Shown: one piece after another, positions 7,221 through 57,300 of the stretch | Numbering within the stretch: position 1 is the first letter of the stretch | How the letters are laid out: every line of letters begins with the position of its first letter | Source of the DNA: Antedon mediterranea | Lineage: Eukaryota; Animalia; Echinodermata | NCBI RefSeq assembly: GCF_964355755.1 | Contig: NC_092671.1 | Location: 10,974,001 to 11,038,000 of the forward strand | DNA: 64,000 nt | Direction: 5' to 3' | Translations under genes and position numbers: made by a program | The notes under the pieces: generated by a model | The model's database searches: none | Told to the model about the DNA's origin: nothing | What the model saw: the letters and a program-made list of their open reading frames with translations, nothing else

Positions 7221-9152
7221 ACATTACAGAGTTTCCCCATGGGGATAATACAGTTTTAATTGAATTATATTGAATTATGTTGTGTTTTTTTATATCAGGC
7301 TCAGGGTAGTCTAGATAATAGTGTAGACCAGTAAAAAGATCACAATACTATGTGTAATGTGATCTACACTACCACTTGTTAGCATACAGAACAATACAAT
7401 CCAATCTTACACATTTTTCTAAATTTAGTTTATAAAAAATTCCAACATAGCTAAAGTATTATTTTTGAAAGCAGCCATTCAGGCACAATAAATAGGAAGA
7501 CGAATGCTGTAAATGAATTAAGCATACAGTATAATAATAGGTAAGCATATTACAATTGTTGTAAAATTTTAATAATGTATCTGTTTAGGAAAGTGTTAGT
7601 ATCGCATGCTAATGATGTGAGTAAATAAATAAATGAAGCAAAAGAAAAACAAAATAGTAAGTACAGTTAGTTTTGTGTAAAAAAATATAACATCGGCAAT
7701 AAAAAATACATAGACCCAAGAGGTACGAAGATCTCTCACACAGACCATCACTGCTGGTGCACTTTATCAAACTGTTAAACTAAGCAAAAACTAAAGACTG
7801 CATGTTACAAAACATGTCAGCAACAGTTATAACACATTCATGCAGAGAAGGATCCAAGTTAGTCGGTGGGGGAGGGGACACGGTTGACGTGCAAAAAGGG
7901 AAAAAGAAACCGAATGTTCCCCTTGTTACCCGCTTCCGCCGGATATGGTGTTCAGTTTTTTAAACTGAATAACATTAATCATGTATGTACACTGTTAATT
8001 TCATTCACAACAATAAATTTGATTCTGTTAATTGTATGCGAACAAGTTGCAGTGTACCAGTGTAAACAATACTGTGTTCTACACTTGTTAGTATATACAG
8101 TACAATACCAACCGATTCTGCTACTGTCCCTAGGTGATATCTGTATAATACTCTATAATATATGTATGTTAAAAGTACAGCATTTATGCAGACAGCATAC
8201 ACTTGCTGATAGTTATACAGATACATACCTATTGATAGTAGCAGAATCGGGTGACAATACAATCCAATCTTACAAATTCTAAATATAGTTTTTCAAAATT
8301 TCCAACATATCAACAGATAGGCCTATCAGTATTATTCTTTGAAATCAGCCATTCAGGCATATTGAACTGGAAAAGAATGCTGTACTGAATTAGGCATACA
8401 GAATAGGTAAGCATATTACAATTGTTCGTTAGTAAAATTCAGTTTAGGAAAGTGTTAGTACCGCGATGTTAATGTGCTAATCGTGAACGATCCTATACAC
8501 ATTGACAACAATTAGGCCATCGATATGTGCATAATAATGATAGGCCTAGCGATACAACAGCATATGCCTTTGTTACTTTTAAACATCTTAAATGAAATGT
8601 AAATCGTTCACGTCTCCAGTACACTTTCAATGCTACCGTGTGTGTGTTATAGCTATTTTATTTTCTATTTTAAACGTTTCTGATCAACGAAATACTGTAT
8701 ATGGAAAAATAGTAGGCCTGGTGGTAAGATATAGTAGGCCTATAATTTGTTTCACAATGCATTATACTGGGCACTAATTAATAGGCACCACTAATAGGGT
8801 ATGTAAACATTTTATCAACCAATCAGACAAATGATACAGTAAGTAAACATTTATTTTAATGTGAACATTAACCTATACATTTTCTATACGTACGGTACGC
8901 GATATATGCAATTATGTTAACTTGCTAAGAGTTGCTAAACCTTCCACTTTTCAAAGGGAAACATAATCAGCATCAGCTATGAAGAGATATAAACGGTCTC
9001 TAAAAATAGCTAGCAACATTCATGTTCGTTATAAATGGCAAAATTAGGTCATTATTTGACATTAAATGGTCGAGGCGAAAACTCATGACACATGATACTG
9101 CTTACTTTTCAATAAGCTTACGTTTTGCTTATTCTTAGGAGATTACGCAAAG

Positions 9153-9429
9153 ATGTCTAGTCGTAAGAAGAAGAAAAAAGAACTTGAACGCTTCAAATCC
9201 GAACTAAAGTTACGCGACTTACGCGATGACGTCATTGAAATCTTAATTAACGAAGGATTCAGTCGTTTGTCCGATTTACGAGGTTTGGAAGTGGAAGACT
9301 TGGATAAAATACAAAATCTTCAACTGGCACAGTATGTGATTTTGAAAACAAAAATTAAAGAGAAATGGAGTAAGGTGTATGACATGGAGAGCAGCAGTGA
9401 TGGTGAGAGCACAGTAGAAAATGTTGAAG
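9153..9429 (+). other. SAM-like domain exon (paralog A; B copy at 20424-20703)
   Basis: FKSELKLRDLRDDVIEILINEGFSRLSDLRGLEVEDLDKIQNLQLAQYVILKTKI fits the SAM pattern L..egi.....L..L...DL..l.l..g....l...i. Confidence 0.6.
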
Positions 9430-12400
9430 GTAAAGAGTAAAACCTGGAAAGATGTAATTTATTAAAACGATGTTATTTCATTTACATATTTTTTAAATGA
9501 TTTTATAAGGATTAGGCCTACAAGAAAAAAGGATGCAAAATTTGCTAAGAGTTAACAAAGAAAAATTAGCATACTGTACTATACTGTACAAACCCACTAA
9601 TAACAGCCTATCCTATAAATGTATTCAGTATACCGTATCGGCTTACATTAAAAAAATATTCTAAATCACAAATATTTTTCTGAAAGAATGCATTGTCCTG
9701 GTGTGTGGATATTTGCATATATATTATTTTTAACGTAATTAGGTCTACTGTTACAAATGTTTTAAATATCCGAACGTTCCTAGATTAGAGGTAGATATTA
9801 CGTATTATTCAATTCAATAATTACAACTTATTATCTGCCTTGAACAGAAAAATATGAGCCGGAATTGGAATCCAGAAAAAGGCAGAAGAAGCACAAAAGA
9901 AACTCTTCGAAAGAAGGTCTTGATAGTGGTACTTCAAGCTCTAAAACGGAAGATCACAAAGCTTCGGGTCAACGAACAGGGGTCAAGAGTAAAGCTTCAA
10001 CTCAAACCAAACCCGACAAAACTTCGGATATAGAGAGTGGCCAAAATACACAAGATAACACTCGCGCCCAAAATCCACAAAGTACTGGGGCTGGTGAAAA
10101 AACAGAAATGAAGAGTGATTTTAACAAAAGTAAACCCAAGGAAGACAAACATGACAAAACGTCGGATATAGAGAGTAACCAAAATACACAAGATAACACT
10201 TACGCGCCAAAACCCCAGAGTACTCGGGCTGGTGAAAAACCAGAACGAATGAAGAGTGATTTTAACACAAGTAAACCTAAGGACGACAAACATGAAAAAC
10301 CGTCGACAGAACACGTTTCAGATATTGAAGGTATGATTTTCACAATACTAAGTTTGTGCCCATTTTAACCATGATAAGTCGCCGAATAATCTTATTAATT
10401 TTATATTAAATTAGTAACTGTTAGTCAAATTTTCTTTTTAAATACTCTTCGCAAACAAAATCCAATTATTAAATACCGTAAATATAGAAATAATCATTAA
10501 TATGGTGTTGTGCTTAACTATGTTTGTACCCATAGACGTTGAACAGTCGAACGACTTGATAGAACACTTCAATTGCAATTTAGCTAAAAAGTTTTTCAAA
10601 CAGAAGCGATATGATAAAATGGAAGAAGTGTTGGTTAAAGTGGACAGGCAGACGAAATCAGCATACGGTAGAGGAAGATTCGCCACGAAGATATCACAGG
10701 GGTGTAATGATTTTGCTGAATTACATGACTGCATTAACCATCAGATGACAGATGTCAAAGTTTTGCATGAACTGGCATGTGCGCAGTTCCTTTCCCTTGC
10801 AGAGTCTCACAGAGAGATATTGAAAGAGATGGACATGGACACAGAATGTACTATCTTTACTGAATGGGCTAGTCGCTTAGAAGTGATATTCATGGAGAAT
10901 TCGCCTCTTGAATACGGTTCACTTGAATGGAAAACTGTGATTTCCAAAACAGAGGAAGTGGAAAGGTTTTTTTCATCTCTTCCAATTCCAGCAAGAAATG
11001 TCTCAAAATCATACATTCTGTTAATGTTGCAATTTATTTGCCGTATGTGGCTGTATCGAAATCATCTTATTCCAGAAGATCAATATGGTCTGCTTTTAGT
11101 CGCTACATTCGCTCTTCCGCTGTGTGAATCTGAGCTTGTGACGTCAAAATATTTTTGCGCTGTAAAGCATGACATGTACGTGCACGCTGCAATAACCATC
11201 GGGTGTAATATCTCGAATATGCGGTTAGCTGTTAAAGATTGGTATGATGAATTTTATAGGTTCACAAAAAGATGTGAGCAACTCTACGACGAAGGGCTCA
11301 AAATGAACAAAGATATTAGATCTGAGGATGATACTAGAAACTTGGACAAGTTTACTTCCTGTATGTATAGCTTTATTTGAAAATTATATCTTAATAACAG
11401 GCCTATAGTGTGTTTTATCGTTTGTACAGCTCAGACACCACATTACATGTTTACAGCATTATTCTCTTTATTATACTTTTTTTTTATCGAAATTAATTTG
11501 TTTTTTTAAACATTTATTTTTAAAGTGGTGCAATCACGACTGAAGACAGCTGATCTGCATTTTGGCATATGCCAAGATGACTACATACCAGACAGGACCA
11601 CAGACGAGCACCATAGACTGACTGAGCAAAATATAACCACTATTTTGAGTCATTGGAATGACAAAAGCTATAAAGCCTTCTGCCAGTCTATCACTGACGC
11701 CGAAAATCAACTTAAAGATACTGGTTTTAGGCTACAAGTTGGTAGTTGGTTATCTCCTAGATACAAGGACGCATGTAATGTTTTAAATGGTTCTTATAAA
11801 CAACTTGATAGTTCACAGTCTCTCCTTGACAATCTGCGTGACTATCTCATGGAACTCGTAGTTGACTGCAGGCGACTTCTGAAAGATTTGAAGATCTACA
11901 GCAATGATTCAATGACAGACTGGGTTGAAGTTTTCTCTCGATTTTGTTCCGCTGATGATTGTGTATTTGGATCTTCTGAATGGCATGCAGTATTGGATAG
12001 AGCTAAAACAACAGTAGAAAATATGCCACGAGGAGCAAATATTATCGGACGAACAATTACACAAATGTATGTTCAACTTTTCGTAGAGTTAATGAAGAAG
12101 GCATTTCTAACATATCAGCAAATAACGCCTAAAGACCGACTTGGCCATGTTCGTTTGGCTTTAATTAACATGACAATGGTAAAAAGTCCTCTTCTGTCAA
12201 GTAAATGGTACTCAAGCATGCGATTTAATATATACTTGTGTGGGCTAAGAAGCATAGCATCATGTTTACTAGAAGCTGAGAAGCCTAATAAGGATACGTT
12301 CTATCAAGAATACAAAAACGTAAAAGAAAACATTGACAGTTTAATTGTAGAAAGTCGAAAATTCAAATTGCCGTTTGCCTCAAAGGAAGACTTGGAAAAG

Positions 12401-15400
12401 TTTATAGCTCTCCATAAAGGTAAATACAACAATATATAAATTATAAACCAAACTATTCGAAATATTAAAATATATATTTTATTAGGCCTATTTGTCGTTT
12501 TACTCTAGTAGTAAGCTATACCATTTATTAGTGGTCTCTACTTATATACATTACATACAATGCAACACACATAATATGTCATTAACATATAAAGTATAAT
12601 AATGTTTTTATACCTATCGCCTTTTCCCTGAAAAAAAAATTGATTTGAATTGATTAAAATTTCATTTAAAAACAATTGACTTAAAACAGGCTCTAACACT
12701 TTTATGTCTTTCAAAGACGTCAAGCAAAACATGACTGGTAGGTCACATTCTCGAAGCAAAGTGATTGCATCTGATCCTGATGTATCACGACTTGTTGAAA
12801 CGGCAGTCGCTAAATATCAACAAAAGGACTACGATCAGATGACCAAACATCTAGATGATGGTGAAAAGAAAGATGGATCATGTGATGTGCGATTGGCATT
12901 TGCTGGAAATATTTCTACTGAATTCCATCTTGTTGTCACTTTCAGCAATAATATACCCGAGGATAGTGGACTTTCGACTGTCGAGGAAACTACTCAGAAA
13001 TATTTGCTTTATTTGGCAAATGATCACCAAAATGTAATGAAATGTATGAACGAACGCCTAAGTAAGGATATGAAGACATTAACGGCTGACTTGTTCACGC
13101 TACCAAATGTTATGCCAGGTACTCATTCGTGGATACAACTGGAACGAGATGCCAAAAAGATGGTTCAGTATTTTGAAAGTTTAACCAAGAATGGGCAATC
13201 GGTCACTAAATGCTACATACTGCTTTTCCTGACGGTCATACATAATTTTATCGCAACACGTAACAGACTTCGTAGACCAGAGCATTTTAGACTGCTACCT
13301 TTCATATTGCCTTGCAGACTTATTTGCGAAAGTAAATTACTAGAGTCAAATGCATGGATAAAAACCAAATTTGAAGTTTATGAGGTAGTAGTACTGACAA
13401 CAGGTGCAGCACTTGGAACTGGGCAAATTCCATGTGATCTGCGTTATCCAGATTACTGGAAAATGTATGATGAACTCGTAGAAAGAGGGAAACAGTGTGG
13501 AATTGAACTAACTAATGCTAACAAGCAGGACCACATGGACAGAATGCGCCGGGGTAAGAAAGTAAAATATTTCTTCCGGTACCGTATAAATGTATTCTAA
13601 AAATGTATTAACATACATGTGTAGGCCTATTCATTTGTATTAGGACGTAAAAAACACGGTACTTGTCTAAAAAAAGTTTCACCCTCCTGAAAGAATTACT
13701 GTAACTTTCATTTAAAAATTTGACATACAAAAGCTTAGTTTTCACTCATTTACTAATTTCGTTTTAGATGGATTAAATCTTTGCAATGGCACAGAAGACA
13801 GAATGTGTATCACAGCAGCATTATTGTACCATAGAGCTGGTTGTTATAAAGGACTGATGCTGATATTAAATGCTGCTAATCAAACTAGCTCAGTCCAAAA
13901 TATTAGGATGAACTTTACCATGCGCGTGTCACATACATTTGAGAAATGTGTTGACTATCACAACAAAATCTCCAATGCAAACACTTATGAAGATCTTGTT
14001 GAGAAATCGTATCACTACTTATCCACCACCGCCAAAGATTTTTTGAAGTTCGTTAAGAATATGGGTGAAACAACTTCCAACGACCTAGTATGTTGGGTAG
14101 ACGAAGTCTTTCAAGCAAGAAACGGAAAACCCGAATTATATCCCGTATTGGAAATAGACTCCGTAACCGAGAAATGCAATATGGCATCCGTGTCTATACA
14201 ACGTATGAGTGAAGAAGCTAGATGTATCGCACAGACATATTTAGAATTCTTCATGAGTTTTATCATGAACTTCGTCACAAGACGATATCAATTGCATGTT
14301 AAGAATGTTTACAAGGGTGGATTGAAAATGACACTAGCTGTTATTATGCTGTGTAAAGATGTACTTGTCACATCTAACTTTTCGGTCAAACAAAAACTAG
14401 ACTCATACGGTGTAGCAGCAACATATATGACAGAAATTAGTGGCGGCGATGTTTGGACAGACAAAATGGAATTTGTTCTAAATGAACTTCCTAACCTAGA
14501 ACAACAGCGCAAACAGTTTGACGAAATATGCAGAAAGAGGGAAAGACAAAAAAAAGGGTAAGTATCAGTTCAGTTTTGGGGTGAAGGCCTAGGAAGGGGT
14601 TAATTTGATCATATTATTGATTTAATAAATTCCATGCAAACTATATAATTACTATTACTGTGACAAAATAATCTACAACATTCTTTTATTTGATACATAT
14701 TAAAGAATCACATTGTCAAAAGTCTTCCAAATCAAAAGTCTATGCAACCATTTGTAAGTTTGATATCCGTTTTTTTTTTTATTCTGTAAGTGTGGCCTAA
14801 CAATGAAAGACAAACTGAACAAAGCAAGACAAATGAGCAGAAACGGATTGCTGGCCTAAATACAATTACACGCAATAGTAAGTCAAATGCACCTGTATTA
14901 AAAACTATTGATTGTACTACCAGCTATTAAAGATTTCAGATTCATGTGTAAAATGTACATTTTAAATTTTAAACACCGTTTAGAATTAGAAAAAAGTACA
15001 GTTCATTTTATTTTATCTTTGGCTTTATTATTTGGGTGGCAGAGGGCTGTCTTCTTTTACCGCCCATTGGCACGTTTGCTTTGCCGGAATTAATTTTAGG
15101 AAATAGTAATAAAACAACATGGGTATACATTACCGAGTTAAACATAGTTATGGTATTTGAAACATTTAAGTTACTAACATCAGAATGTAATTATAGTAAT
15201 ACGTTTGGCATCACATCATCATCATCACAAACATTGTTCAAGTCAAAATACACAGAGAGTATTGTTTCCCAATGTGTAATGCAATGTCACTAACATTTTT
15301 GTTTTCCTCATTTCAGATGATTACCAGGCTGATGTAAGATACTTATTTGTTTACCAATAGTAGGCATTAATATAAAATAGTATTTTATACATTATCTATA

Positions 15401-15804
15401 GATATTTACCATGTTATTGCATACATGAACATGATTATGACTTGTTATTACAGAATATTATGAAACAAAAAAAATTGTTGGGAAATAATGAATACGAGTA
15501 CGAACACATCCTCAGTTGGAACACCTTTTCTACAGTATGCATACACTTGGACGTTACTAATGAAGCAAGACGCGACTGGAGAGCACTTGCTGGAGAGATG
15601 GGAGTACACGCTCAGACAATTGAAGCTTGTCTTCAAAGTAAAGATAACCCTACAAAAACACTTCTCGAGATTTTATTTAATCGAAATAAAGGTAAACCAC
15701 GGGAAGATGTATTGCTGGAACTCGCCGATATGTTAAAGAAATGCAAACTTGGCTATGCTGCTGACTTGGTTCAAAATGATATTCAAATGCCTTTTACAGA
15801 CTAG
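9153..15804 (+). CDS. Paralog A: SAM-like / charged linker / four ~270-aa helical repeats / death domain; +1 frameshift at the end of exon 6 as assembled
   Basis: Exons 9153-9429, 9848-10330, 10536-11360, 11526-12419, 12717-13553, 13768-14557, 14791-14877, 15317-15333, 15454-15804. All GT-AG and positionally identical to paralog B. Exon 6 is 790 nt versus 789 in B and C. Confidence 0.85.
10015..10295 (+). repeat. Coding tandem repeat, 138-bp (46-aa) period, 2 units in exon 2 of A
   Basis: GACAAAAC[T/G]TCGGATATAGAGAGT starts at 10015 and 10153. Exon 2 of B has only one unit. Confidence 0.85.
15454..15804 (+). other. Death-domain exon (MyD88/IRAK-type pattern); paralogs at 26465-26818 and 59691-60029
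   Basis: CIHLDVTNEARRDWRALAGEMGV..QTIEACLQSKDNPTKTLLEIL...LLELADMLKKCKLGYAADLV shows the DWR.LA..MG / PT..LL / L...L...AD.V death-domain pattern. Confidence 0.8.
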
Positions 15805-20423: not shown

Positions 20424-23400
20424 ATGTCTAATCGTAAGAAGAAGAAACAAGAACTTGAACGCTTCAAATCCGAACTAAAGTTACGCGACTTACGCGATGA
20501 CGTCATTGAAATCTTAATTAACGAAGGATTCAGTCGTTTGTCCGATTTACGAGGTTTAGAAGTGGAAGACTTGGATAAAATACAGAATCTTCAACTGGCA
20601 CAGTATGTGATTCTGAAAACAAAAATTAAAGAGAAATGGAGTAAGGTGTATGACATGGAGAGCAGCAGTGATGGTGAGAGCACAGTAGAAGAAAATGTTG
20701 AAGGTAAAGAGTAAAACCTGGAAAGATGTAATTTATTAAAACGATGTTATTTCATTCAGATATTAAAGTTTTTTAAATGATTTTATAATGATTACAGGAA
20801 AACAGGATGCAAACTTTGCTAAGAATTAACAAAGAAAAACACTGCAAATAAATTCGCATACTGTAGTAATATTGTATAAACCCGGCACTAATGACAGCCT
20901 ATCCTATAAATGTATTCAGTATACCGTATAGGTTTACATTAAAAACAATATTCTAGTAAATCACAGATATTCTTCTGAATGAATTCATTGTCCTGCTACG
21001 TGGATGTATTCATTATTTGCATACTGTATATTATTTTTAACGAATTAGGCCTACTGGAACAAATGTTTTAAATATCCGAACGATTAGATTAGAGGTAGAG
21101 ATGTATGTATAATTAAATTCAATAATTATAACTTCTTATCTGGCTTGAACAGAAAAAGATGAGCCGGAATCGGAATCCAGAAAATGGCAGAAGAAGCACA
21201 AAAGAAACTCTTCGAAAGTAGGTCTCGATAGTGGTACTTCAAGCTCTAAAACGGAGGATCACAAAGCTTCGGATCAACGAACAGGGGTCAAGAGTAAAGC
21301 TTCAACTCAAACCAAACCCAACAAACCCGACAAAACTTCGGATATAGAGAGTGGACAAAACACTCAAGATAACAATCGCGCCCAAAAACAACACAGTACT
21401 GGGGATGGTGAAAAAACAGAAATGAAGAGTGATTTTAACAAAAGTAAACCCAAGGACGACAAACATGAAAAAACGTCGACAGGACACGTTTCAGATAATG
21501 AAGGTATGATTTTCACAATAGTAAATGCCAATTTTAACCATGATTAGTCGTCGAATACCTTTATATTACTTTAGTAACTGTTAGACAAATTTTCTTTTGT
21601 AAATATTCTTTGCAAACAAAATCCAATATTAAATACCATAAATATAGAATTAATCATTAATATGGTGATGTGCTAAACTATGTTTGCATCCACAGACGTT
21701 GAACAGTCGAACGACTTGATAGAACACTTCAATTGCGATTTAGCTAAACGGTATTTCAAACAGAAGCGATATGATAAAATGGAAGAAGTGTTGATTAAAG
21801 TGGACAGGCAGACGAAATCAGCATACGGTAGAGGAAGATTCGCCACGAAGATATCACAGGGGTGTAATGATTTTGCCGAGTTACATGACTGCATTAACCA
21901 TCAGATGACAGATGTCAAAGTTTTGCATGAACTGGCATGTGCGCAGTTCCTTTCCCTTGCAGAGTCTCACAGAGAGATATTGAAAGAGATGGACATGGAC
22001 ACAGAATGTACTATCTTTACTGAATGGGCTAGTCGCTTAGAAGTGATATTCATGGAGAATTCGCCTCTTGAATACGGTTCACTTGAATGGAAAACTGTGA
22101 TTTCCAAAACAGAGGAAGTGGAAAGGTTTTTTTCATCTCTTCCAATTCCAGCAAGAAATGTCTCAAAATCATACATTCTGTTAATGTTGCAATTTATTTG
22201 CCGTATGTGGCTGTATCGAAATCATCTTATTCCAGAAGATCAATATGGTCTGCTTTTAGTCGCTACATTTGCTCTTCCGCTGTGTGAATCTGAGCTTGTG
22301 ACATCAAAATATTTTTGCGCTGTAAAGCATGACATGTACGTGCACGCGGCAATAACCATAGGATGTAATATCTCTAATTTGCGGCTAGCTGTTAAAAATT
22401 GGTATGATGAATTTTATAGGTTCACACAAAGATGTGAGAAACTCTACGACGAAGGGCTCAAAATGAACAAGGATATTAGATCTGAGGATGATACTAGAAA
22501 CTTGGACAAGTTTACTTCCCGTATGTATAGCTTTATTTGAAAATTATATTAATAGTATGCGGCCTGGTGAAATCACCACTGAAGAACGTTTTAGATAGAT
22601 CAATTACCATAATTAGGTTTGTTTTCATTGTTTTAAGTGTTTCGCCTTTTCTCTTATTTATGTTGGTTTGTTAATAAAATATAATATTTATTTGTTTATT
22701 CTTAAAGTGGTGGAATCACGACTGAAGACAGCTGATCTGCATTTTGACATAGGCCAAGATGATTACATACCAGACAGGACCACAGACGAGCATCATAGAC
22801 TGACTGAGCAAAATGTAACCACTATTTTGAATCACTGGAAAGACAAAAGTTATGAAACCTTTTGCCAGTCAATCACCGAGGCCGAAAATCAACTTAAAGA
22901 TACTGGTTTTAGGCTACAGGTTGGTAGTTGTTTATCACCTAGATACCAGGACGCATGTAATGTTCTAAATGGTTCTTATAAACAACTTGATAATTCGCAG
23001 TCTCTTCTTGACAATCTACGTGACTATCTCATGGAACTTGTAATTGACTGCAGGCGACTTCTGAAAGAGTTGAAGATCTACAGCAATGATTCAATGACAG
23101 AATGGGTTGAAGTTTTCTCTCGTTTTTGTTCCTCTGATGATTGTGTATTTGGATCTCCTGAATGGAATGCAATATTGGATAGAGCTAAAATAACAGTGGA
23201 AAATATGCCACGGGGAGCAAATGTTATCGGTCGAACCATTACCCAACTGTATGTTCAACTGTTCGTAGAGTTAATGAAGAAGGCATTTCTAGCATATCAG
23301 CAAATAACGCCTAAAGATCGACTTGGCCATGTTCGTTTGGCTTTAATCAACATGACAATGGTAAAAAGTCCTCTTCTGTCCAATAAATGGTACTCAAGCG

Positions 23401-26400
23401 TGCGATTTAATGTATATTTGTGTGGGCTAAGAAGCATAGCATCATGTTTACTAGAAGCTGAGAAGGCTAATAAGGATAAGTTCTATAAAGAATACAAAAC
23501 CGTCAAAGAAAACATTGACAGTTTAATTGTAGAAAGTCGAAAATTAAAAATGCCATTTGCCTCAAAGGAAGACTTAGAAAAGTTTAGAGCCCTCGATAAA
23601 GGTAAATCCAACAATACATAAGTTATAAACAAAAATATTCGAAATATTTAAAAAATATATACATATAATAGGGATACCTATTGTTTGTAGTTTTACTCTC
23701 TCTAGTAAGCATTATTGATCTCTACTTATACATAAAATGCAACACACATCATTAACGTATAAAGTATGATGATGTGTTTATGCCTATTTTCCATGAAAAA
23801 AGGTTTAATAACGATAATTCTATTCAATTTAGAACTGATTGTAACTTCATTTAAAAACAATTAACTAACTGTATATTTTATGTCTTATAAAGCCGTCAAG
23901 CAAAATATGACTGGTAGTTCGAAATCTCGAAGTAATGTGATTGCATCTGATCCTGGTGTATCACGACTTGTTGACGCGGCAGTGGATAAATACCTCAAAA
24001 GGGATTACGATCAGATGACTAAACATCTAGATGATGCTGAAGAGAAAGATGGATCATGTGATGTGCGATTGGCATTTGCTGGAAATATTTCTACAGAATT
24101 CCATCTTGTTGTCACTTTCAGCAATAATATACCCGAGGATAGTGGACTTGCGACTGTCGAGGAAACTACTCAGAAATATTTGCTTTACTTGGCAAATGAT
24201 CACCAAAATGTAATGAAATTAATGAACGAAAACTCAAGTGACGCTATGAAGACATTAACGGTTGGCCTGTTCACGCTGCCAAATGTTATGCCAGGTACAG
24301 ATCCGTGGATAAAACTGGAACGAAATGCCAAACAGATGGTTCAGTATTTCGAAAGTTTAACCAAGAGTGGTCAATCGGTCACTAAATCGTACATACTGCT
24401 TTTCCTGACGGTCATACATAATTTTATCGCCACACGTAACAGACTTCGTAGAGGAGAACATGTTAGACTGCTACCTTTCATATTGCCTTGCAGAGTTATT
24501 TGCGAAAGCAAATTACTAGAGTCAAAAGCGTGGATAAAAACCAAGTTTGAAGTTTATGAGATAGTCGTACTGACAACAGGTGCATCACTTGGAACTGGAC
24601 AAATTCCATGTGATCCACGTTATCCAGATTATTTGAAAATGTATGATGAACTTGTAAAAAGAGGGAAACAGTATGAAATTGAACTAACTAATGCTAATAA
24701 GCAGGAACACATGGACACTGTGCGGCAGGGTAAGAAAGTCATCATTATTTCTTTCCTTATCGGAATTTATCTGCATATTAATTTATATCAAGTTTAGAAA
24801 AATACGGTAGTTATTTTAATAGAGTTTGTGTATGATTCTCTAAAAACGCACGTTTCGCACTTTTGAAAGTACTGTAACATTTTGTTTTTCAAATAATAAT
24901 TATGAATAAACTTTCTTTTAAAATCTTAGTAGCGTATTTAATTTATCTTTTTAGAGGGATTAAATCTTTGCCACGGAACAGAAGACAGAATGTGTATCAC
25001 AGCAGCATTATTGTACCATAGAGCTGGTTGTTATAAAGGACTCATGTTGATACTAAATGCTGCTAACCAAACTCGTGCAGTCAAAAATATAAGAATGAAC
25101 TTTACCATGCGTGCGTCACAAACATTTGAAAAATGTGTTGACTATCACAACGAAATCTCCGATGCAAACACTTATGAAGATCTTGTTGAGAAATCGTATC
25201 ACTACTTATCCACCGCCGCAAAAGATTTGTTAAATTTCGTTGAGAAAATGGGTGAAAAAACTTCAAACGACCTAATACTTTGGGTAGACGAAATCTTTCA
25301 AGCAACAAACGGAAAACCCGAATTATATCCAGTTCTGGAAATAGAATCAGTAACCGAGAAATGCAATATGGCATCCGTGTCTATACAACGTATGAGTGAA
25401 GAAGCTAAATGTATCGCACAGACATATTTAAACTTTTTTATGAGTTTTATTATGAACTTCGTCACAAGACGTTTTCAATTGCATGTTAACGATGTTTGGA
25501 TTGGTGGATTGAAAATAACACTGGCGGTTATTATGCTGTGTAAAGATGTTCTTGTCACGTCTAATTTTTCCGTCAAACAAAAACAGAACTCATACAATGT
25601 AGCAGCAGCATATATGACACAAATGAGTGACGACGATGTTTGGACAGAAGAAATTGAATTTGTTGTAAATGAACTTCCTAACCTAAAACTACAGCGTAAA
25701 AAGTTTGACGAAATATGCAGAAAGAGGGAAAGACAAAAGAACGGTAAATATCAGTTGACGTTTTTAGGGTGTAGGAGGGATAATTTGATCATAGTATTGA
25801 TTTCATAAATTCCATGCCAACTATATGACTATATTAATGAGATAAATAATCTACAACATGCGTTCATGCGATACATATTATAGAATCACATGGACAAGAT
25901 TCATGCAATTTTTTGTAAGTTAATTGATATCCATACTGATAAGCTTTTTTTTTTCTGTAAGTGTGGCCTAACAATGAAATACAAACTGAACAAAGCAAGA
26001 CACAGGATCAGACACCATGTGAACGGAACACAAAGATTGTTGCCCTATATGAGTTTAGTAAGTCAAATGCACTCCTTAGTAAGTCAAATGCACGCGTATT
26101 AAAAACTATTGAGTTTAGTCTTCTTTTCCACCCATTGGCACATTAAAGCTTGTTGTTAACGTTGCTTTGACGAATTTTTTTTTTAACAACATGGGTATAT
26201 TATAGAGTTAAACGTATACTTCTTATCGTATTTGAAGAGAATGTAATTACTAAATACACAGCGAGTATTGTTTTTCAATGTTTAATGCAATGTCACTAAC
26301 ATTTTGTTTTCCTCATTTCAGGAGGTGACCAAGTTGATGTAAGAAATTTACTTGTTTACCCATAATAGTAGGCCTTAATATATTATAGTATTTTATACAT

Positions 26401-26818
26401 AGATCTATAGATATTTACCATGATATTGCATACATGACCATATTATTATGACTTGTTATTACAGGATTTTATGAAAAAAGAAATATTGTTGGGAAAAAAT
26501 GGAAAATACGAGTACGAACACATTCTCAGTTGGGACACCTTTTCTACAGTATGCATACACTTAAACACCACTCGTGCCTTTTCACAAGATTGGAGAGCAT
26601 TTGCTGATGAGATGGGAGTAAAAACTGAGACAATTGAAGCTTGGCTTCAAAGTAGAGGTAACCCTACAAACACACTGCTCGAGATTTTCTTTAATCGAAA
26701 TAAAGGTAAACCACGGGAAGATATATTGCTGGAACTCGTCGATACGTTAAAGACATGCAAACTTGACAATGCTGCTGACTTAGTTGAGAAGGATATTCAA
26801 CGGAATTTTAAAAACTAG
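20424..26818 (+). CDS. Paralog B: intact ~1480-aa SAM-like / linker / four helical repeats / death-domain protein
   Basis: Exons 20424-20703, 21153-21503, 21696-22520, 22708-23601, 23893-24729, 24955-25743, 25962-26057, 26322-26338 (17 nt), 26465-26818. Total 4443 nt, open throughout. Introns are phase 1 except the last (phase 0). Confidence 0.88.
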
Positions 26819-27862: not shown

Positions 27863-28010
27863 AATCCTACAAAAATAATGCTCGTGAATTTGTTTGAAAG
27901 AAATGAAGATAAACAACGGGAAGATATATTGCATGAACTCGTCAATGCAAACTTGGCCATGCTGCTAACTTAGTTGAGAATGGTATTCATAGGAATTTTA
28001 AAAACTAGAG
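27863..28010 (+). pseudogene. Orphan 3' fragment of the death-domain exon
   Basis: AATCCTACAAAAATAATGCTCGTG...CGGGAAGATATATTGCATGAACTCGTC..GCTGCTAACTTAGTTGAGAA..AATTTTAAAAACTAG matches 26660-26820, with an internal deletion and no splice acceptor. Confidence 0.8.
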
Positions 28011-48300: not shown

Positions 48301-51300
48301 CAGATAACTACAGAATATCTATTCGTTTTCTTAAAGTGTTTGAATCACGACGGAAGACAGCTGATGTGAATATTTACAGTATTCAGGCTGGTGAAAAAAC
48401 AGAACTGATGAAGAGTAAGTTTAACACAGATACACCCAAGGACAACAAACAAGAAACAACAACGAAAAAACACGTTTCAGATATTGAAGGTATGATTAGA
48501 GAGTTAATTTTAACAACTCTCATAATAGTAAGTTTGTACCCATGTTATTCAAAAGAATCAAAGCAAGAATAGTCTTTTATATTACTTTAGTACTGTGGTC
48601 TTAACTATGTTTGTACCCATAGACGTTGAACTGTCGTACGACTTGCTAGGACACTTCAATTGCAATTTAGCTGAACAGTTTTTCAAACAGAAGCGATATG
48701 ATAAAATGGAAGAAGTATTGGTTAAAGTGGACAGGCAGACGAAATCAGCATTTGGTAGAGGAAGATTCGCCACGATGATATCACAGGGGTGTAATGATTT
48801 TGCTGAGTTACATGACTGCATTAACCATATGATGACAGACGTCAAAGTTTTGCATGAACTGGCATGTGCGCAGTTCCTTTCACTTGCAGAGTCTCACAGA
48901 GAGATATTGAAAGAGATGGACATGGAAACAGGATGCACTATATTTAATGACTGTGCTAACCACTTACATGCAATATTCATGGAGAATTCGCCTCTTGAGT
49001 ACGGTTCACTTGAATGGAAAAATGTGATTTCCAAAACAGAAGAACTGGAAAGGTTTTTTTCATCTCTTCCAATTCCAGCAAGAAATGTCTCAAAATCATA
49101 CATTCTGTTAATGTTGCAATTTATTTGCCGTATGTGGCTGCTTCGAAATCGAATTATTCCAGAGGATCAATATGGTCTGCTTTTAGTCGCTGCATTCGCT
49201 CTTCCACTGTGTGAATCTGAGCTTGTGGCGTCAAAATATTTTTGCGCTGTAAAGCATCACATGTACATGCACGCTGCAATAACCATCGGGTGTAATATCT
49301 CTAATCTGCGGCTACCAGTGAAAGATTGGTATGATGAATTCACTAGGTTCACACAAAGATCTGAGCTACTCTACGACGACGGTCTCAAACTGCAGAAGAA
49401 TATTCGATCTGAGGATGATACTAGACAATTGACCATTAAAACTCGTACGTATGCCTCCTATAAATTATATTACGTTATATATTCCTTAATCCATGGTGTA
49501 TATTGGAAATAATAAATAATTCCGATAATACGTATTCACTGTAGTGAATGTTTTAAGTGTGAAATTATAACCACAACACATTTGTTTACTATAGTCAAGA
49601 GGGATTCATCTCATTTTATTAATATCAAAATAGCAGCCAAAGTTTGAAATAGTGAATGAATTGATACATGATTACATGATACGTACAGATATAAAACAAT
49701 CACTAGTATTGTAGTTTAATAGTGGGTGTATAGAAAACTCAGATCTAGAAAACTCAGATCTCCGATATATCTGAGTTTTCTAGATCTAGAAAACTCAGAT
49801 ATCTGACTTTTCTAGATCTAGCAAACTCAGATAGCAAGATCTGAGTTTTCTAGTTCCAAAATGGAACTAGAAAACTAGAAAATATTATTTAACGATCGTT
49901 AAATTAAATTAAGTGCTATTGCACGCCATGTGTGACCAACAATCGTTCAATCAAATGACAGGAATTTATAATATAATGTGTATACGGTAGAGGATATTTT
50001 TTGGGTTAGGTTTATCAGGGTAGCTGGCCAGTCGGTATTCACCGCACATATGTAATTTTTGCATAATCTAGTACTTACGTTTGTTCTTAATTCTATTTCA
50101 TTGCCTGCATGGTCATTTATTTTCTATGTTTTAATTACCTGTTTTTTCTCTAAAGTGGTTGACTTAAGACTGAAAACAATCCAAGATAAATACACACCAG
50201 AGAAGACAACAGACGAGCAACTGATAGAGGCAAATCTGAACGCTATTTTGAATCATTGGAATGACAGCTTTGACAAATTCAGTCAAGGAAACACAGAGGA
50301 TCTTTCGGAAGTTGTAGCTGCCACCAAGCGACTACTGATAAACTGGAATAAGATTAGAAGTAATCTGGAAGTCTGGAATAATCTGCGTGTAAAGAAAGTT
50401 AAGGATGACGCATACACAGGTCAATAGCAAAGTGCAATTTACCATTAACAAGGCCAACAGCCATTAAGTCGCGTGCTACAATGCATAGTGATACCGGACC
50501 GACAGACAGACCGACAGACAGACAGACCGACCGACCGACATAGTGAACTATACTGACCGAAATAAACATGTTTAAAAATGTTGAGATGTTTAAAAACATT
50601 TATATTTTTTAAATTTACACGTGCGTAGCCTGTCACTTTTGACGTGCTCGTATAACGTAATTTCGAGTTGAAAAGTAAGTCAAGAAAACAGAAATCGGGC
50701 AAAACGAGTGCGCAAAAACATTTAACGCGCAGTGCGCGCGCAAAAATATGCGCGCAATCATGGCAATTTTGTAAACGCTTAAAATTGCCTGAAATGTACA
50801 CTTATTTCATCGAAAATAAATTTTGAAAATTTTAAGCGCGCGTACGCATGCGTTACATGCGCTACGCACGTAATTGTATTGCCATATGATGATTACATGC
50901 GCTACGCACGTAATTGTATTGCCATATGATGATTTATGCCCTGAAATTTATGAGTACCAAATTTTATTTAATTGTGATTCATGGTTGTGAAGATATGATT
51001 ACAAACGTGATTTCGTTAAATCGTGCGTAGACCACGTAATTTTTTATTGCGCACCGTGAAAACATAACCACATTGATTCCTGGCCATAAGGAATATACTG
51101 TGAAAAATTGACCTAGCTAGATTAAACTGATATCAAGATAAGGTCAGAAAGCGATAAAACGCATAGTGATACCGGACCGACAGACCGACAGACCGACAGA
51201 CAGACCGACCAACCGACCGACATAGTGAACTATAGAGTCGCTTCCACGCGACTAAAAATGTCATGACAATAATACAAAATAGACAAATAAGGCCTGGGGA

Positions 51301-54300
51301 ATTCATAATACAGTACCTCTCATTCAATTCAGTTTGATTTTATTCCTTTTGTTTTTCGGCGCCCAACTTTGTAATCTATATGACAAAATATAATAGCATA
51401 GTAGAACAATAATCATCTTTAGTAACTTTAACCTAAAATAGTAATAATGTGTCTTTCTTTTCTTTCTTTTGTTTACCCATTTTACAAAATAAATACCATG
51501 TTCGAACATACTATATCTATTTTTTTAATAGATAATAATAATGACAATTGACGTATTTTATGAGATTCATAATTTACAAAAATATCACTATCAAAATAAT
51601 TTATGTTAGGGATATATTCCTTTCTCAGTTTCTTATAAAAAGAACGAAAATGTCGTCCTCTTCCCGCACAGTAGGCCCTAATAACAAAACAAACACAATC
51701 TATTTTCACTAGTAATATTCAAATGACGGCCTCTTTCAATTAATAGATGGGCTTGGCATAAGGAATCTTGAGATTGTTGTTTAAAAGTTTAAAATTTAAA
51801 TGATATGTTAATGGAATGTTTAACATGCAAATACTTGTAATGAAATATCCCGAACCACATCTGTTTTACAGAAAGGGTATACCTTATTCCTAGAAAGAAA
51901 TTCACGGGCGAGTTCCACATACACCCAAATCCAAGCCAATCTAAAATGGATTTAATTTCAGATGTCCATCTTAATTCTTCCATTTTCAGTCCACATTCTT
52001 TGTTTTTTTGGTAGCATATTTAATTTAATACAGTCATTTAGGCCTATCATTTTAAGAAAATAATGACATTAATAGGAACCTTGTTGAACCGTGAAATGTG
52101 CAAACACTTTGCCCTCCGAATATGCAAACAACAGTTTTGACCAAGACATTTTGCACCATTTGGTTGATGAATTCCTTCCATTCCATGCGCTTCGCGTTCT
52201 GAAATCTCCAACGATCTAGCCAATTTATCAATATTATCCAAAGACATGTCCTCCTGTAGAGCTCGTCTGTGAACCTTTTTTTTTCGGCCGTCTTGAATTA
52301 TCTGATGCTTCATCTCTGCATCCATTGGATCCTGGTTATCTATACCATAGTTACTAATTAATCTGCGTAAACGAGAACGAATTGGTCCAGGTTTTCCCTT
52401 TCGTGTTGCACAGTATTTCGAAAATGCAAATTTCATACTCCGTATTCTTTTTGGGCAAGAAATAATCTTCAAACACCTTGACTTGTTTCATATACACGTC
52501 ATCATCTCCATCAGCAGTACTAATGTTTCATTCATGTCGAACACATTTCCACCTCCTCTATCTAAAAGTAAAGCTCTTTTTGCTCCGAGTTCATAATTTT
52601 CCAAGCCACCAGGCTATTTTTAAAACGGGCCAGTCATCTTTTCTATCGTGTGGCAAGTGTACTTGACTCGCCATATGTACGTCAAAGGGAGTTACATAAG
52701 CCAATAAACCAGGCTGCACCACCATAATTACGTATCCTCGTCGTCAATGTAATATATCGACATAAAACATTGTTACCGCCTGATGGAAATGATGACATGT
52801 ATAAGAAACAAGTCAAGGAACGACACATACAACGACGTGAAGGTACAAATAGACAATCAAGCTATAGTTATGTAACGTTTTGATTATGGTATAATATAAG
52901 GCAATGTATGTTTTATGTCTTATAAAGCCGTCAAACAAAATATGACTGGTAGGTCATATTCTCGAAGCAAACTTATTGCACCTGATCCTATTGTATCACG
53001 ACTTGTTGACGCGGCAGTGGATAAATATCTCAAAAGGGATTACGATCAGATGACTAAATATCTAGATAATGCTGAAGAGAAAGATGGATCATGTGATGTG
53101 CGATTGGCATTTGCTGGAAATATTTCTACAGAATTCCATCTTATTGTCACTTTCAGCAATAATATACCAGAGAAAAGTGGACTTGCGACTGTCGAGGAAA
53201 CTACTCAGAAATATTTGCTTTACTTGGCAAATGATCACCAGAATGTAATGAAAGATATGGAAGAAAACTCAAGTGACACTATGAAGACACTAACGGTTGG
53301 CCTGTTCACGCTGCCAAATGTCATGCCCGGTACACATTCGTGGATACAACTGGAACGAGATGCCAAACAGATGGTTCAGTATTTCGAAGGTTTAACCAAG
53401 AGTGGCCAATCGGTCACTAAATGCTACATACTGCTTTTCCTGACGGTCATACACAACTTTATCGCCACACGTAACAGACTTCGTAGAGGAGAACATTTTA
53501 GACTGCTACCTTTCATATTGCCTTGCAGAGTTATTTGCGAAAGCAAATTACTAGAGTCAATAGCGTGGATAAAAACCAAATTTGAAGTTCATGAGGTAGT
53601 AGTACTGACAACAGGTGCATCACTTGGAACTGGACAAATTCCATGTGAACCACGTTATCCATATTACTGGAAAATGTATGATGAACTAATAGAAAGAGGG
53701 AAACAGTGTGGGATTGAACTAACTGATGCTAACAAGCAGGAACACATGGACATTGTGCGGCAGGGTAAGAAAGTCATCATTATTTTTTTCGGTACCGGCA
53801 TACCGGGTTTCAAGGTTGTCATAGCCGGGAGTGGTATTGGGGTTAAGCTCCCTTTACCTAAAAAAATGCTCCCATACGGTGTGCGTCTCAAATAGCCTCT
53901 GACAACTAAAAGTCCAACTCCTGGCCTGCACGAATGGCTTAGTTCTTTCTTTAAGCCTGGCGAAACCTGCTTCCTACTGACAGGAGAAGGGACGAAGGCG
54001 AGCCACTGGCGCCTCAAAACCAGAAGCTTACTTGGACAGGTGGAGTTCATCAGCCGTGACAGGCAGTTCACCTAGGAGAAGGAAAACTCTGATTTTAAAC
54101 CTCCGCTGCCTTGCGGCTATATCCATCCTGGAAAAGGCTTCAGGAGTAAACCTCAAGGACAAATCCGGAGTGAAGCCCCTAAGGCGGTTTGGAACATTGA
54201 CTCAATCTCCTTCCGGCAGCTTCTGCAGCCAAACTGGTACCATACGTATTGCTCTGCTCTCCTATGGACTTTATCGGTAAAGGCCGAGAGGGGGATTCTG

Positions 54301-57300
54301 CTGACTGGGCATCGCAGGGTCCCCATATTTTTCTTCGCCCAGGCGTGCGCCCTGGAGAGGTCACTTCAGTGCTGTTGTAAGAAACGGCTAAAATCAACAC
54401 GGGAGACAGCAGTTTACGAGTGATAAGCCAAGACCAATTGGCGTAGGTCAAGGCGCTACGGGTTGTCTCCGTCGGTGGGAGGGACCATCGCAGTCCCACT
54501 GGTCAGCTATCGCCCGCCTCAAGCCGAGCAGCCCTCGGCCAGTAAGATGCTGACCCGCCACAGTCTGCCTGCTTCAATGGGTGCTTGGAGCTTAGGATTC
54601 TTCCGACAAGCGGACTGTAACTACTGCACCAGGCAAAAGATTAAAGAAAAGACTAAAGAATACTACCTTGCGATTTGCAAGCTGGAATGTCAGGACCATG
54701 TGTCCTGGCTTTTCAAACGACCCACGAACGACCAATGACTTAAGAAAGACAGCTATCATCAACCGTGAGCTCAAGAGGCTCAACATCGATATCGCTGCAT
54801 TACAGGAGACAAGACTCCCCTCGGATGGCAGTATAAGAGAAAGGGACTACACGTTCTTTTGGCAGGGGTTGGAACCTGACCAACCACGACTCCATGGAGT
54901 GGGGTTCGCTGTTAGAAACTCTCTTGTAGCATCAGTCGAACCACCATCCAAGGGCACCGCCCGAATCCTCTCACTCCGCCTATCAACATCTTCGGGCACA
55001 GTAAACATCTTGAGCATCTATGCACCAACTCTTTGCTCAACACCCGAGTCTAAAGATGAGTTTTATGAAGAGCTGGACTCTGCCATCAGAGGAATCTCAG
55101 ACACAGAACATCTGTATTTGCTTGGCGACTTCAACGCCCGTGTGGGATCTGACCATTATTCCTGGCCCAGGAGCATCGGACATTTTGGTGTAGGAAGACT
55201 AAATGAGAATGGCCAGAGGCTTCTGGAGCTCTGCAGTTATCATGACCTCTGCATTACCAACACATTCTTCTCCACCAAGCCTCAGCACAAAGTGTCCTGG
55301 CGACATCCAAGATCTCACCACTGGCATCAACTAGATCTCGTCATCACTCGAAGATCTTACTTAAACTACGTAAACATCACTCGCAGTTACCATAGTGCAG
55401 ACTGCGATACTGATCACTCTATGGTGCGCAGCACAGTGTGTCTCAAACCAAAGCAAATTCATCGCTTCAGGCACATAGGATGCCCACGCATCAACACAGC
55501 TAAGACCAATCTGCCAGACCTGTGCGCTCGTTTTGCCCAAACCATCGATAAAATGCTGAAAGACTGTCCAAAAGCCAACTCTGAAATGAGATGGGCTCAT
55601 ATTCGTGATGCCATCTATACCTCCGCCAAAGACATCTTCGGCGTGAAAGAGAGGAAAACCCCTGATTGGTTTGAATCAGGAATTTCTGCGATGGAGCCAG
55701 CTTTAGAGGCAAAGCGTGCAGCGCTAATTGACTACAAAAGAGACCCTTCAGAAAGAACACTAGAGGCTCTTCGTAAAGCTAGAAATAACTCTCAAAAGAT
55801 AGCTCGACAGTGTGCCAACCAATACTGGTTGAACCTCTGTCAAGATATTCAACTCTCTGCTGATCACGGCAACACTGGCGCCATGTACGCTGGTATAAAA
55901 AAGGCCTTTGGACCTAGTGCAACGAAGATCGCACCATTAAAGACCGCCTCTGGTACCATCATAACTGATCGTGGAAAGCAGATGGAGAGATGGGTAGAGC
56001 ATTACCAACAACTCTACTTGAGAGAAAACATTGTCACTGACTCAGCCATTGAGTGCATAGATTCTCTCCCCATAATGGAAGAGCTCGACAATCCACCTAC
56101 ACTGGCGGAACTAAGCAAGGCCATTGATATCTTGGCTTGCGGTAAAGCCCCAGGAAAGGACGGTATCCCACCAGAGGTCCTCAATGCTGGTAAACGCTCC
56201 ACATTATTACTACAAAACCTACACGAGCTTCTGCTACAATGCTGGGAAGAAGGCTCAGTACCCCAGGATATGCGTGACGCAAACATTGTTACACTGTATA
56301 AGAACAAAGGCGATCGCAGCGACTGCAACAACTATCGTGGAATATCCCTTCTTAGCATAGTGGGTAAAGTCTTCGCACGTGTTGTACTAACTAGATTACA
56401 ATCACTTGCAGAACGTGTCTATCCTGAAGCCCAGTGCGGCTTCAGAGCTGGAAGATCAACCATCGACATGATATTCTCAGTGAGACAACTGCAAGAAAAA
56501 TGCCGTGAGCAGAGGCAGCCCCTGTACATTGCCTTCATAGATCTAACGAAAGCCTTCGACCTTGTCAGTAGGAAAGGTCTCTTCTCCCTACTACAAAGGA
56601 TCGGATGTCCTCCAAAGCTTCTGGGGATAATCACCTCCTTTCACGAAGACATGCACAGCGTTGTGCAGTATGATGGCTCATCTTCAGATCCTTTTCCCAT
56701 CAAGAGTGGAGTAAAGCAGGGGTGCGTTCTCGCGCCTACACTCTTCGGCATATTCTTTTCCCTGTTACTATCATATGCCTTTCGTCAGTCAAATGAAGGA
56801 GTCTACCTACATACTCGAAGTGACGGAAATCTCTTCAACCTTGCCCGCTTTCGCGCAAAGACCAAGGTGCGACGTCTACTTATTAGAGAGTTGCTCTTCG
56901 CTGATGACGCTGCCATCACAGCCCACAGTGTAGAAGCACTCCAGCGCCTCATTGACTGCTTCTCACATGCATGCGAGGAGTTTGTCCTTACCATCAGCCT
57001 TAAGAAAACGAACGTTCTAAGTCAAGACGCAGCCAATGCTCCTCCTAAGATCAAAATCGGCGATTATACTCTTGAGGTGGTGGACAAGTTCATTTACCTT
57101 GGTTCCACTGTTTCCAGTAACCTCTCATTTGACGCCGAACTCAACATCAGGATTGGAAAAGCGACATCAGCCATGGCTCGCCTAACAGATAAGGTTTGGA
57201 AAAACCGCATGCTGACTATAAACACCAAGATGAAGATCTACCAGGCTTGTGTCCTAAGCACCCTATTGTACAGCAGTGAATCATGGTCTCTTTACACCCG

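What the first reader, a model, noticed from the sequence alone, without database searches (positions are those of the whole stretch)
10536..14557. Four ancient one-exon-per-unit ~270-aa repeats of an unrecognised helical domain
Seen: exons 3-6 (825, 894, 837, 789/790 nt, all phase 1-1) align by eye despite low identity. Examples: KRYDKM / KSYKAF / KDYDQM / GCYKGL; RGRFATKIS / RLQVGSWLS / RLAFAGNIS / RMNFTMRVS; YGSLEW / FGSSEW / PGTHSW; VSKSYILLML / ITQMYVQLFV / VTKCYILLFL / IAQTYLEFFM; CESELVTS / VKSPLLSS / CESKLLES / CKDVLVTS. Inference: a novel all-alpha domain amplified by exon duplication long before the gene triplication. It could be a ligand sensor, a scaffold or a membrane-acting bundle.
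Basis: partly seen in the sequence, partly recalled or inferred. Interest (0 to 1): 0.8.

Follow-up and report, generated by a model that had tools for sequence, protein, structure and literature searches.

The report
Crinoid death-domain protein, four helical repeats
A feather-star gene, present in three tandem copies, encodes a protein whose body is four anciently duplicated all-helical units of about 270 residues, one exon each; they match no known sequence family, are predicted to fold like TPR-type helical arrays and are followed by a death domain, so the protein likely acts as a crinoid-specific scaffold in cell-death or immune signalling.

Summary
Exons at 10536-11360, 11526-12419, 12717-13553 and 13768-14557 each encode one homologous unit. 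All 6 unit pairs align in register (BLASTP E 4e-13 to 2e-3; profile-profile probability 95-99%).

The window is Antedon mediterranea (crinoid). NCBI's models use the same exon junctions.

No Pfam or PDB sequence match explains the units. A profile search of 1.84 billion representative proteins gave 6 hits at E<=1e-3. Four are real and all crinoid (Antedon, Anneissia); two are weak and probably spurious.

It is the best clue to function: likely a lineage-specific death-fold adaptor or scaffold.

Copy A has a 1-nt insertion that cuts off its death domain. Copy C is decayed.

Interest is moderate.

The parts
9153..9429 (+). Copy A, exon 1 (coding part): short N-terminal helical module after a Lys-rich start (MSSRKKKKK...)
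   Evidence: P0001 residues 1-93. GT..AG joint 9429|9848 in X1 contigs. No Pfam family. Weak likeness to the NusA C-terminal repeat, E 0.04: a lead only.
9848..10330 (+). Copy A, exon 2: K/S/T/E/D-rich low-complexity linker with an internal 138-141-nt tandem duplication
   Evidence: Composition. Direct repeats 10008-10107/10146-10245 and 10107-10164/10248-10305 at 86-91% identity. The matching N-terminal part of the P0002 model has pLDDT < 50.
10536..11360 (+). Copy A, unit 1 (exon 3, 825 nt, phase 1-1)
   Evidence: Model pLDDT 81.3, 13 helices.
11526..12419 (+). Copy A, unit 2 (exon 4, 894 nt, phase 1-1)
12717..13553 (+). Copy A, unit 3 (exon 5, 837 nt, phase 1-1)
   Evidence: Joint 13553|13768.
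13768..14557 (+). Copy A, unit 4 (exon 6, 790 nt). One extra A in the run at 14548-14555 relative to B and C shifts the frame, so P0001 ends ...RQKKGVA* in the next exon.
   Evidence: Runs X2 and X4, which cover the introns, list no indel there.
15454..15804 (+). Copy A, last exon: an intact death-domain reading frame, out of frame with exon 6 in this copy
   Evidence: Pfam PF00531, E 8.7e-8, 32.6 bits against a cut-off of 22.6.
20424..26818 (+). Copy B, complete. Units at 21696-22520, 22708-23601, 23893-24729 and 24955-25743; death-domain exon ends at 26818. NCBI splits it into two models, P0008 and P0003.
   Evidence: Spliced joints. Death domain in P0003, E 3.9e-6.
48342..60029 (+). Copy C, decayed. 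No exon 1 found in the window. Unit 1 at 48623-49444. Unit 2 is reduced to a 52-aa remnant (50152-50298, 46% identity). Unit 3 at 52928-53764. A LINE lies in the following intron. Unit 4 at 58138-58926. Death-domain exon at 59685-60023.
   Evidence: tblastn, splice scan.
54596..57853 (+). LINE-type retrotransposon reading frame (endonuclease plus reverse transcriptase) inserted in the unit 3 / unit 4 intron of copy C
   Evidence: Pfam RVT_1 E 9.7e-32 and Exo_endo_phos E 4.4e-11. GC 0.47-0.50 against about 0.33 around it.

Best explanation
The four exons encode four diverged copies of one all-helical unit of about 270-300 residues that is predicted to be a TPR-like helical-hairpin array, and the protein built from them (short N-terminal helical module, disordered linker, four units, death domain) likely works as a cytoplasmic scaffold or adaptor in cell-death or innate-immune signalling that is specific to crinoids.

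Shown here:
- the repeats, their exon structure and their age;
- the absence of any sequence family;
- the restriction of detectable relatives to two crinoid species;
- the death domain;
- the tandem gene copies, with dN/dS of 0.2-0.5.

Predicted: the all-alpha fold and its likeness to TPR domains.

Inferred from what these domain classes do elsewhere:
- the roughly 1,100-residue helical body would offer extended surfaces that bind protein partners or ligands;
- the death domain would recruit other death-fold proteins by homotypic assembly;
- the N-terminal module might add self-association.

Copy A has lost the link to its death domain through a 1-nt insertion. It would make a body-only protein that could act as a decoy, or it may be on its way to decay.
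For: - Repeat homology: 6 of 6 pairs by BLASTP and by hhalign, with shared invariant columns.
- One exon per unit: sequence, NCBI models and spliced contigs.
- Age: units cluster by position at 98-100% support, with the same inner topology in all four clades.
- Orphan family: no Pfam hit above cut-off. The best PDB sequence hit is E 0.024. The profile search gave 6 hits at E<=1e-3 among 1.84 billion representatives, and the 4 strong ones are all crinoid.
- Fold of one unit: pLDDT 81.3, pTM 0.81, 13 helices.
- Fold of the four-unit protein: pLDDT 73.3, with the same helix pattern in each unit. Helix/non-helix state agrees in 84-92% of aligned columns for 6 of 6 unit pairs.
- Foldseek on the whole body: Ski3 E 1.3e-4, probability 0.97, then UBR4, Ctr9 and IFT-A.
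- Death domain: PF00531 above its cut-off in copy A's last exon and in P0003. The nearest solved relatives are MyD88 and FADD, weakly.
- No signal peptide is evident at the Lys-rich N-terminus (read from the sequence), and there is no clear transmembrane segment.
- dN/dS between copies is 0.20-0.52.
- Background: death-fold adaptors joined to TPR, WD40 or LRR repeats occur in lineage-specific expansions in echinoderms and other invertebrates (passages of PMC8195603).
Against: - Foldseek on the single unit found nothing at E<=1e-3; the best was 14-3-3 at E 0.15, TM 0.26-0.30.
- The TM-scores of the whole-body hits are only about 0.1.
- No TPR Pfam model matched at E<=1.
- The unit profile shows no internal sub-repeat: off-diagonal E 0.4.
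- The alignments used for folding are shallow (11 and 5 sequences).
- The arrangement of units relative to each other is not predicted with confidence (pTM 0.39).
- The death domain is joined in frame to the repeats in only 1 of the 5 family protein models (P0003). P0001 loses it by frameshift, the P0002 model ends inside unit 4, P0004 has a different 106-aa tail with no Pfam match, and P0005 has none.
- There is no functional, expression-condition or partner evidence of any kind.
- An immune or apoptotic role rests on domain class and gene-family behaviour only.
Confidence: 0.55

Rival explanations
1. The unit is a new all-alpha fold, not derived from TPR. The four units are ligand-sensing modules of a receptor that lacks an NTPase and signals directly through its death domain.
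For: - No sequence family at all.
- Foldseek on the single unit has no hit at E<=1e-3.
- Helices of 19-28 residues are longer than in canonical TPRs (the TPR helix length is recalled).
- No 34-residue periodicity.
- Polar positions (R45, S53, Y159, S203) are kept across all units.
Against: - The top structural rows are dominated by TPR-type domains. They align about 130-150 residues at roughly 3 Å over the same part of units 1 and 2 in two independently built models.
- The whole-body Foldseek hits are TPR scaffolds.
- No ligand evidence exists.
Confidence: 0.2
2. The protein is a general helical scaffold unrelated to immunity or apoptosis, for example in trafficking, the cytoskeleton or RNA metabolism. 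The death domain is just one more protein-binding module, as it is in ankyrins (recalled).
For: - The whole-body fold neighbours are housekeeping scaffolds: Ski3, Ctr9, IFT-A, exportins.
- The death domain is missing from several family models.
- Death domains occur in non-immune proteins (established knowledge, recalled).
Against: - Detectable relatives are restricted to crinoids.
- The gene is tandemly duplicated, with one copy decayed and one frameshifted.
- dN/dS up to 0.52.

This pattern is more typical of fast-evolving defence or conflict genes than of housekeeping scaffolds, but that is an inference.
Confidence: 0.2
3. The units form a membrane-acting helical bundle. This was one of the reader's options.
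For: Each unit holds one or two fairly hydrophobic helices. The Kyte-Doolittle 19-residue maxima are 1.5-1.84.
Against: - Those segments contain charged residues and sit inside confidently modelled soluble-type helical arrays.
- There is no signal peptide (read from the sequence).
- Death domains are cytoplasmic modules (established knowledge).
Confidence: 0.03

Closest known systems
TPR / TPR-like helical-hairpin domains (e.g. PlcR 2qfc, AIPL1 6px0, FKBP-type TPRs, LGN; large scaffolds Ski3, Ctr9)
   Different: No TPR sequence signature (no Pfam TPR hit at E<=1). No detectable 34-residue sub-repeat. The helices are longer.
Death-fold adaptors fused to repeat scaffolds in lineage-specific expansions of invertebrates (Kaur et al. 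2021, PMC8195603; passages read)
   Same: A death-superfamily domain combined with a long helical repeat region, restriction to one lineage, and tandem gene copies.
   Different: That paper's families centre on TRADD-N, DED and NTPase modules, and none of these was found here. In the passages I read, this crinoid family is not mentioned.
NLR / STAND receptors with TPR sensor arms
   Same: A death-fold signalling module plus a TPR-like arm, which suggests a possible sensor logic.
   Different: No NACHT, NB-ARC or other NTPase domain was detected in P0001-P0005 by Pfam. The death domain is C-terminal here.
14-3-3 proteins
   Same: Top Foldseek rows for the single unit; both are all-alpha arrays of about nine helices.
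   Different: E 0.15-0.6, TM 0.2-0.3, rmsd about 15 Å: not a meaningful match.

Membership tests
TPR repeat family (Pfam TPR clan) | Sequence match to a TPR profile (34-residue degenerate motif) | tested here: not met
   hmmscan against Pfam-A at E<=1 gave no TPR model for any of the four units, nor for P0004, P0005 or P0008. At E<=0.1 it gave none for P0001-P0003.
TPR repeat family (Pfam TPR clan) | Tandem sub-repeats of about 34 residues inside the domain | tested here: not met
   hhalign of the 16-unit profile against itself: best off-diagonal alignment E 0.4, probability 0.1%. Very diverged TPRs can fail this test.
TPR-like fold (structural class) | Stacked antiparallel helix hairpins that superpose on solved TPR domains | tested here: inconclusive
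ARM / HEAT repeats | Sequence or structural match to ARM or HEAT solenoids | tested here: inconclusive
   No Pfam match above cut-off; the only trace is HEAT_SCC3-SA in P0005 at E 0.04, 14.3 bits against a cut-off of 25. Exportin, importin-beta and CAND1 appear only at Foldseek E 3e-3 to 1e-2 with TM about 0.1.
Death domain (PF00531), for the C-terminal exon | Profile match above Pfam's gathering score | tested here: met
   Copy A last exon: 32.6 bits, E 8.7e-8. P0003 (copy B): 27.3 bits, E 3.9e-6. The cut-off is 22.6.
NLR / STAND NTPases | NACHT or NB-ARC nucleotide-binding domain | tested here: not met
   No such Pfam family in P0001-P0005 or P0008.
SAM domain, for the N-terminal module | Profile match to SAM families | tested here: not met
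   No SAM Pfam hit at E<=1. There is only a weak PDB sequence likeness to the NusA C-terminal repeat, E 0.04. The fold of this module was not modelled on its own.

The most novel reading that the evidence does not exclude
The ~270-residue unit is a crinoid-born domain family with its own fold. Four copies of it form the sensing arm of a new class of death-domain receptor that has no NTPase switch. Copy A, which has lost its death domain, acts as a decoy regulator.
Probability: 0.15. Interest if true: 0.6.

Novelty: new variant of a known kind. Interest (0 to 1): 0.38.

Why it matters
The finding defines a protein family that databases list only as 'uncharacterized protein'. Its building block has no sequence relatives outside feather stars.

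It is also a clean example of how a large helical scaffold can grow. A whole module of 12-13 helices, sitting on a symmetric phase 1-1 exon, was duplicated several times, and the gene was then amplified in tandem.

The link to a death domain makes the family a candidate component of crinoid cell-death or immune signalling. That field has almost no molecular data, and crinoids are notable for regeneration.

If the TPR likeness holds, the result is one more diverged helical repeat family, not a new principle.

Tried and rejected
- ESM Atlas by features: unit 3 had low recognition (1672) and only unnamed clusters. P0002 residues 76-660 gave NAA35/TPR_NAA35 at 0.87, below 0.9, so a lead only.
- PDB sequence search with the unit profile: best E 0.024 to a 58-residue YscU fragment, taken as noise.
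- The two weak profile hits, P0006 (Lactiplantibacillus, E 1.2e-4) and P0007 (Ostertagia, E 2.4e-4), are internally repetitive proteins that match only 60-70 profile positions. I treated them as spurious and did not test them further.
- Word-based homologue searches added only P0008, the N-terminal half of copy B. The search with P0005 added nothing.
- No whole genome is held for this window, so I could not survey further paralogues in Antedon.
- Earlier findings of this scan: none by place or by sequence.
- Sequencing runs: no RNA holder listed. X1's library kind is only a guess, so I use its exon-to-exon joints as support for the boundaries and not as proof of expression. No joint was listed for the u1/u2 junction in A or B, or for the u2/u3 junction in A.
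- Tandem Repeats Finder on 9000-16000 gave 0 rows, as expected for repeats that are only about 20% identical.
- The C-terminal tails of P0004 and P0005 show no significant similarity to each other: best E 0.24.
- The ORF at 32711-33358 has no PDB sequence relative and only a sub-threshold DED hit.
- Literature: the terms crinoid plus 'death domain' returned 3 papers, all general reviews by their titles or abstracts in the listing. Two further searches on death domain plus TPR plus echinoderm terms returned nothing on this family in their listings. I read only search listings, and passages of PMC8195603.
- Model coordinates are not exposed to scripts, so I could not superpose the units directly. 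Agreement of secondary-structure register was used instead.
Full report
**What is there.** The window has about 33% GC and is intron-bearing animal DNA. A homologue search with exon 3 returned a 100% identical 'uncharacterized protein' of the feather star Antedon mediterranea (P0001, 1371 aa). It also returned a 67% identical protein of the crinoid Anneissia japonica (P0002).

- 10536-11360 (825 nt)
- 11526-12419 (894 nt)
- 12717-13553 (837 nt)
- 13768-14557 (790 nt)

They start and end in phase 1, except the end of exon 6 in copy A. The residues of NCBI's model at each junction fit these boundaries.

Contigs of run X1 join exon to exon at GT..AG, while X2 and X4 run through the introns. X1's library kind is not on record and is only guessed to be RNA. 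In copy A the joints lie at 9429|9848, 10330|10536 and 13553|13768. In copy B they lie at 21503|21696, 23601|23893, 24729|24955 and 25743|25962. The u1/u2 junction was not bridged in either copy.

**Are the four exons repeats?** Yes.
- BLASTP aligned all 6 pairs of copy A units in register, at 20-29% identity and E from 4e-13 to 2e-3.
- Profiles of each unit type, built from 3-5 sequences of P0001-P0005, matched each other in 6 of 6 pairs. hhalign probability was 95.1-99.3% and E was 3e-8 to 1.4e-20 over 172-255 columns.
- A MAFFT alignment of the 11 unit copies in the window has six invariant columns (Y25, R45, S53, Y159, L200, L249).

**Age.** In a maximum-likelihood tree of 16 units from five proteins, units group by position, with 98-100% support for each of the four clades. 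All four clades share the same inner order: P0004, then P0002, then the Antedon copies. The four-fold duplication therefore predates both the Antedon/Anneissia split and an older gene duplication. A (u1,u2)(u3,u4) grouping has only 83/86 support under midpoint rooting, and I make no claim from it.

The gene copies in the window are young by comparison: 84-97% amino-acid identity, dS 0.07-0.23, dN/dS 0.20-0.52.

**Gene copies.**
- Copy B (20424-26818) is complete. NCBI splits it into P0008 and P0003.
- Copy C (48342-60029) has no exon 1 in the window. Only a 52-aa remnant of unit 2 survives. A LINE, with endonuclease and reverse transcriptase domains, sits in the intron before unit 4.
- Copy A carries one extra A in an A-run at the end of exon 6, relative to B and C. 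X2 and X4 cover the site and list no indel. With the annotated splice, the frame stops seven codons later, and P0001 ends ...RQKKGVA. Copy A's intact death-domain exon is therefore no longer in frame.

**Architecture.** The last exon of each copy encodes a death domain. Pfam PF00531 scores 32.6 bits in A and 27.3 bits in P0003, against a cut-off of 22.6. Copy C's exon is 70% identical to B's. The nearest solved relatives are MyD88 and FADD, only weakly (E 0.03-0.15).

The N-terminus is a short helical module after a Lys-rich start. It has no Pfam family and a weak likeness to the NusA C-terminal repeat (E 0.04). P0004 carries what looks, by eye, like two such modules. A K/S/T/E/D-rich linker follows.

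I found no NTPase, TIR, caspase or other catalytic domain. No transmembrane segment stands out.

**Is the unit a known family?** By sequence, no.
- Pfam gave nothing above cut-off for any unit or any family protein.
- The PDB sequence search with the unit profile gave only noise.
- An exhaustive HMMER search of 1.84 billion representative proteins gave 6 hits at E<=1e-3. Four are strong and all crinoid: P0003 and P0005 from Antedon, P0002 and P0004 from Anneissia. Two at E of about 1e-4 come from a bacterium and a nematode. They match short stretches of repetitive proteins, and I regard them as spurious.

**Predicted structure.** Unit 1, folded with the 11-unit alignment, gave pLDDT 81.3 and pTM 0.81, with 13 helices and no strands.

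P0002 (1162 aa, all four units), folded with a separate 5-protein alignment, gave pLDDT 73.3. Its pTM of 0.39 means the units are modelled but their mutual arrangement is not. The helix pattern recurs in every unit. In the unit alignment, helix/non-helix state agrees at 84-92% of columns for all 6 pairs. The last helix of each unit runs across the exon boundary into the next unit and is followed by a low-confidence linker.

**Fold comparison.**
- Foldseek on the single unit found nothing at E<=1e-3. The best rows were 14-3-3 proteins at E 0.15 and TM 0.26-0.30.
- Eight of those 50 titles name TPR. From my own knowledge, most of the others (FKBP52, Cpr7, LGN, Sti1, STUB1, Sgt1, Ski complex, KLC) are TPR domains too.
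- Foldseek on the whole body gave 6 hits at E<=1e-3, led by Ski3 (E 1.3e-4, probability 0.97), UBR4, Ctr9 and IFT-A, all with TM of about 0.1.

**Mechanism.** Shown: repeats, exon structure, age, orphan status, death domain, tandem copies under moderate constraint. Predicted: the all-alpha, TPR-like fold. Inferred: an extended helical platform that binds partners, coupled to a death domain that nucleates homotypic death-fold assemblies.

That is the logic of the death-fold-plus-repeat proteins found in lineage-specific expansions in echinoderms, cephalochordates and cnidarians (passages of PMC8195603).

Several points weigh against a firm statement. Only P0003 among five protein models joins the repeats to a death domain. 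The Anneissia models end differently. No functional data exist.

**Verdict.** This is a real, lineage-restricted repeat family with a tidy exon-duplication history. Its fold is most likely of a known class and its function is untested. Interest is moderate.

Noticed in passing
window 14548-14557 (compare 25735-25743 and 58918-58926): Copy A has one extra A in an A-run at the end of exon 6. This shifts the frame and cuts off its intact death-domain exon. B and C lack the insertion.
   Followed up: yes
window 48342-60029, LINE at 54596-57853: The third gene copy is decayed. It has no exon 1 and only a 52-aa remnant of unit 2. A GC-rich LINE (endonuclease plus reverse transcriptase, 1085-aa open frame) sits in its unit 3 / unit 4 intron.
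   Followed up: partly
window 10008-10305: Exon 2 of copy A holds a 138-141-nt tandem duplication (86-91% identity) in the low-complexity linker. Copy B's exon 2 frame is 42 codons shorter.
   Followed up: partly
window 27863-28005: A short death-domain-like remnant (55-64% identity to the end of P0003) lies about 1 kb downstream of copy B.
   Followed up: no
window 32711-33358 (+): A 215-aa open frame with a sub-threshold match to the death effector domain (PF01335, E 0.08, 13.6 bits against a cut-off of 35.9) and no PDB sequence relative. It may be another death-fold gene between copies B and C.
   Followed up: partly
window 38215-38625 and 40363-40749 (+): Two open frames that look alike by eye (…CDVFIVT…WEK…Y.KL..RG..GY.I.KTHC…) and have no Pfam family. 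They may be a second small tandem family.
   Followed up: no
window 1088-1677 (+), 43410-43754 (+), 3101-3436 (-): Repetitive open frames: His/Thr/Asn-rich units at 1088-1677, a repeated 'YKVRQLDNYKVRQV' unit at 43410-43754, and a Pro/Gln/Gly/Tyr-rich frame on the minus strand. The first two are probably minisatellites. What the third is remains unknown.
   Followed up: no
P0004 (Anneissia japonica) residues ~1400-1506; P0005 (Antedon) residues ~398-490: These family members end in tails with no death domain and no Pfam match. The two tails are not significantly similar to each other (E 0.24). P0004 also starts with what looks like two copies of the N-terminal module.
   Followed up: partly
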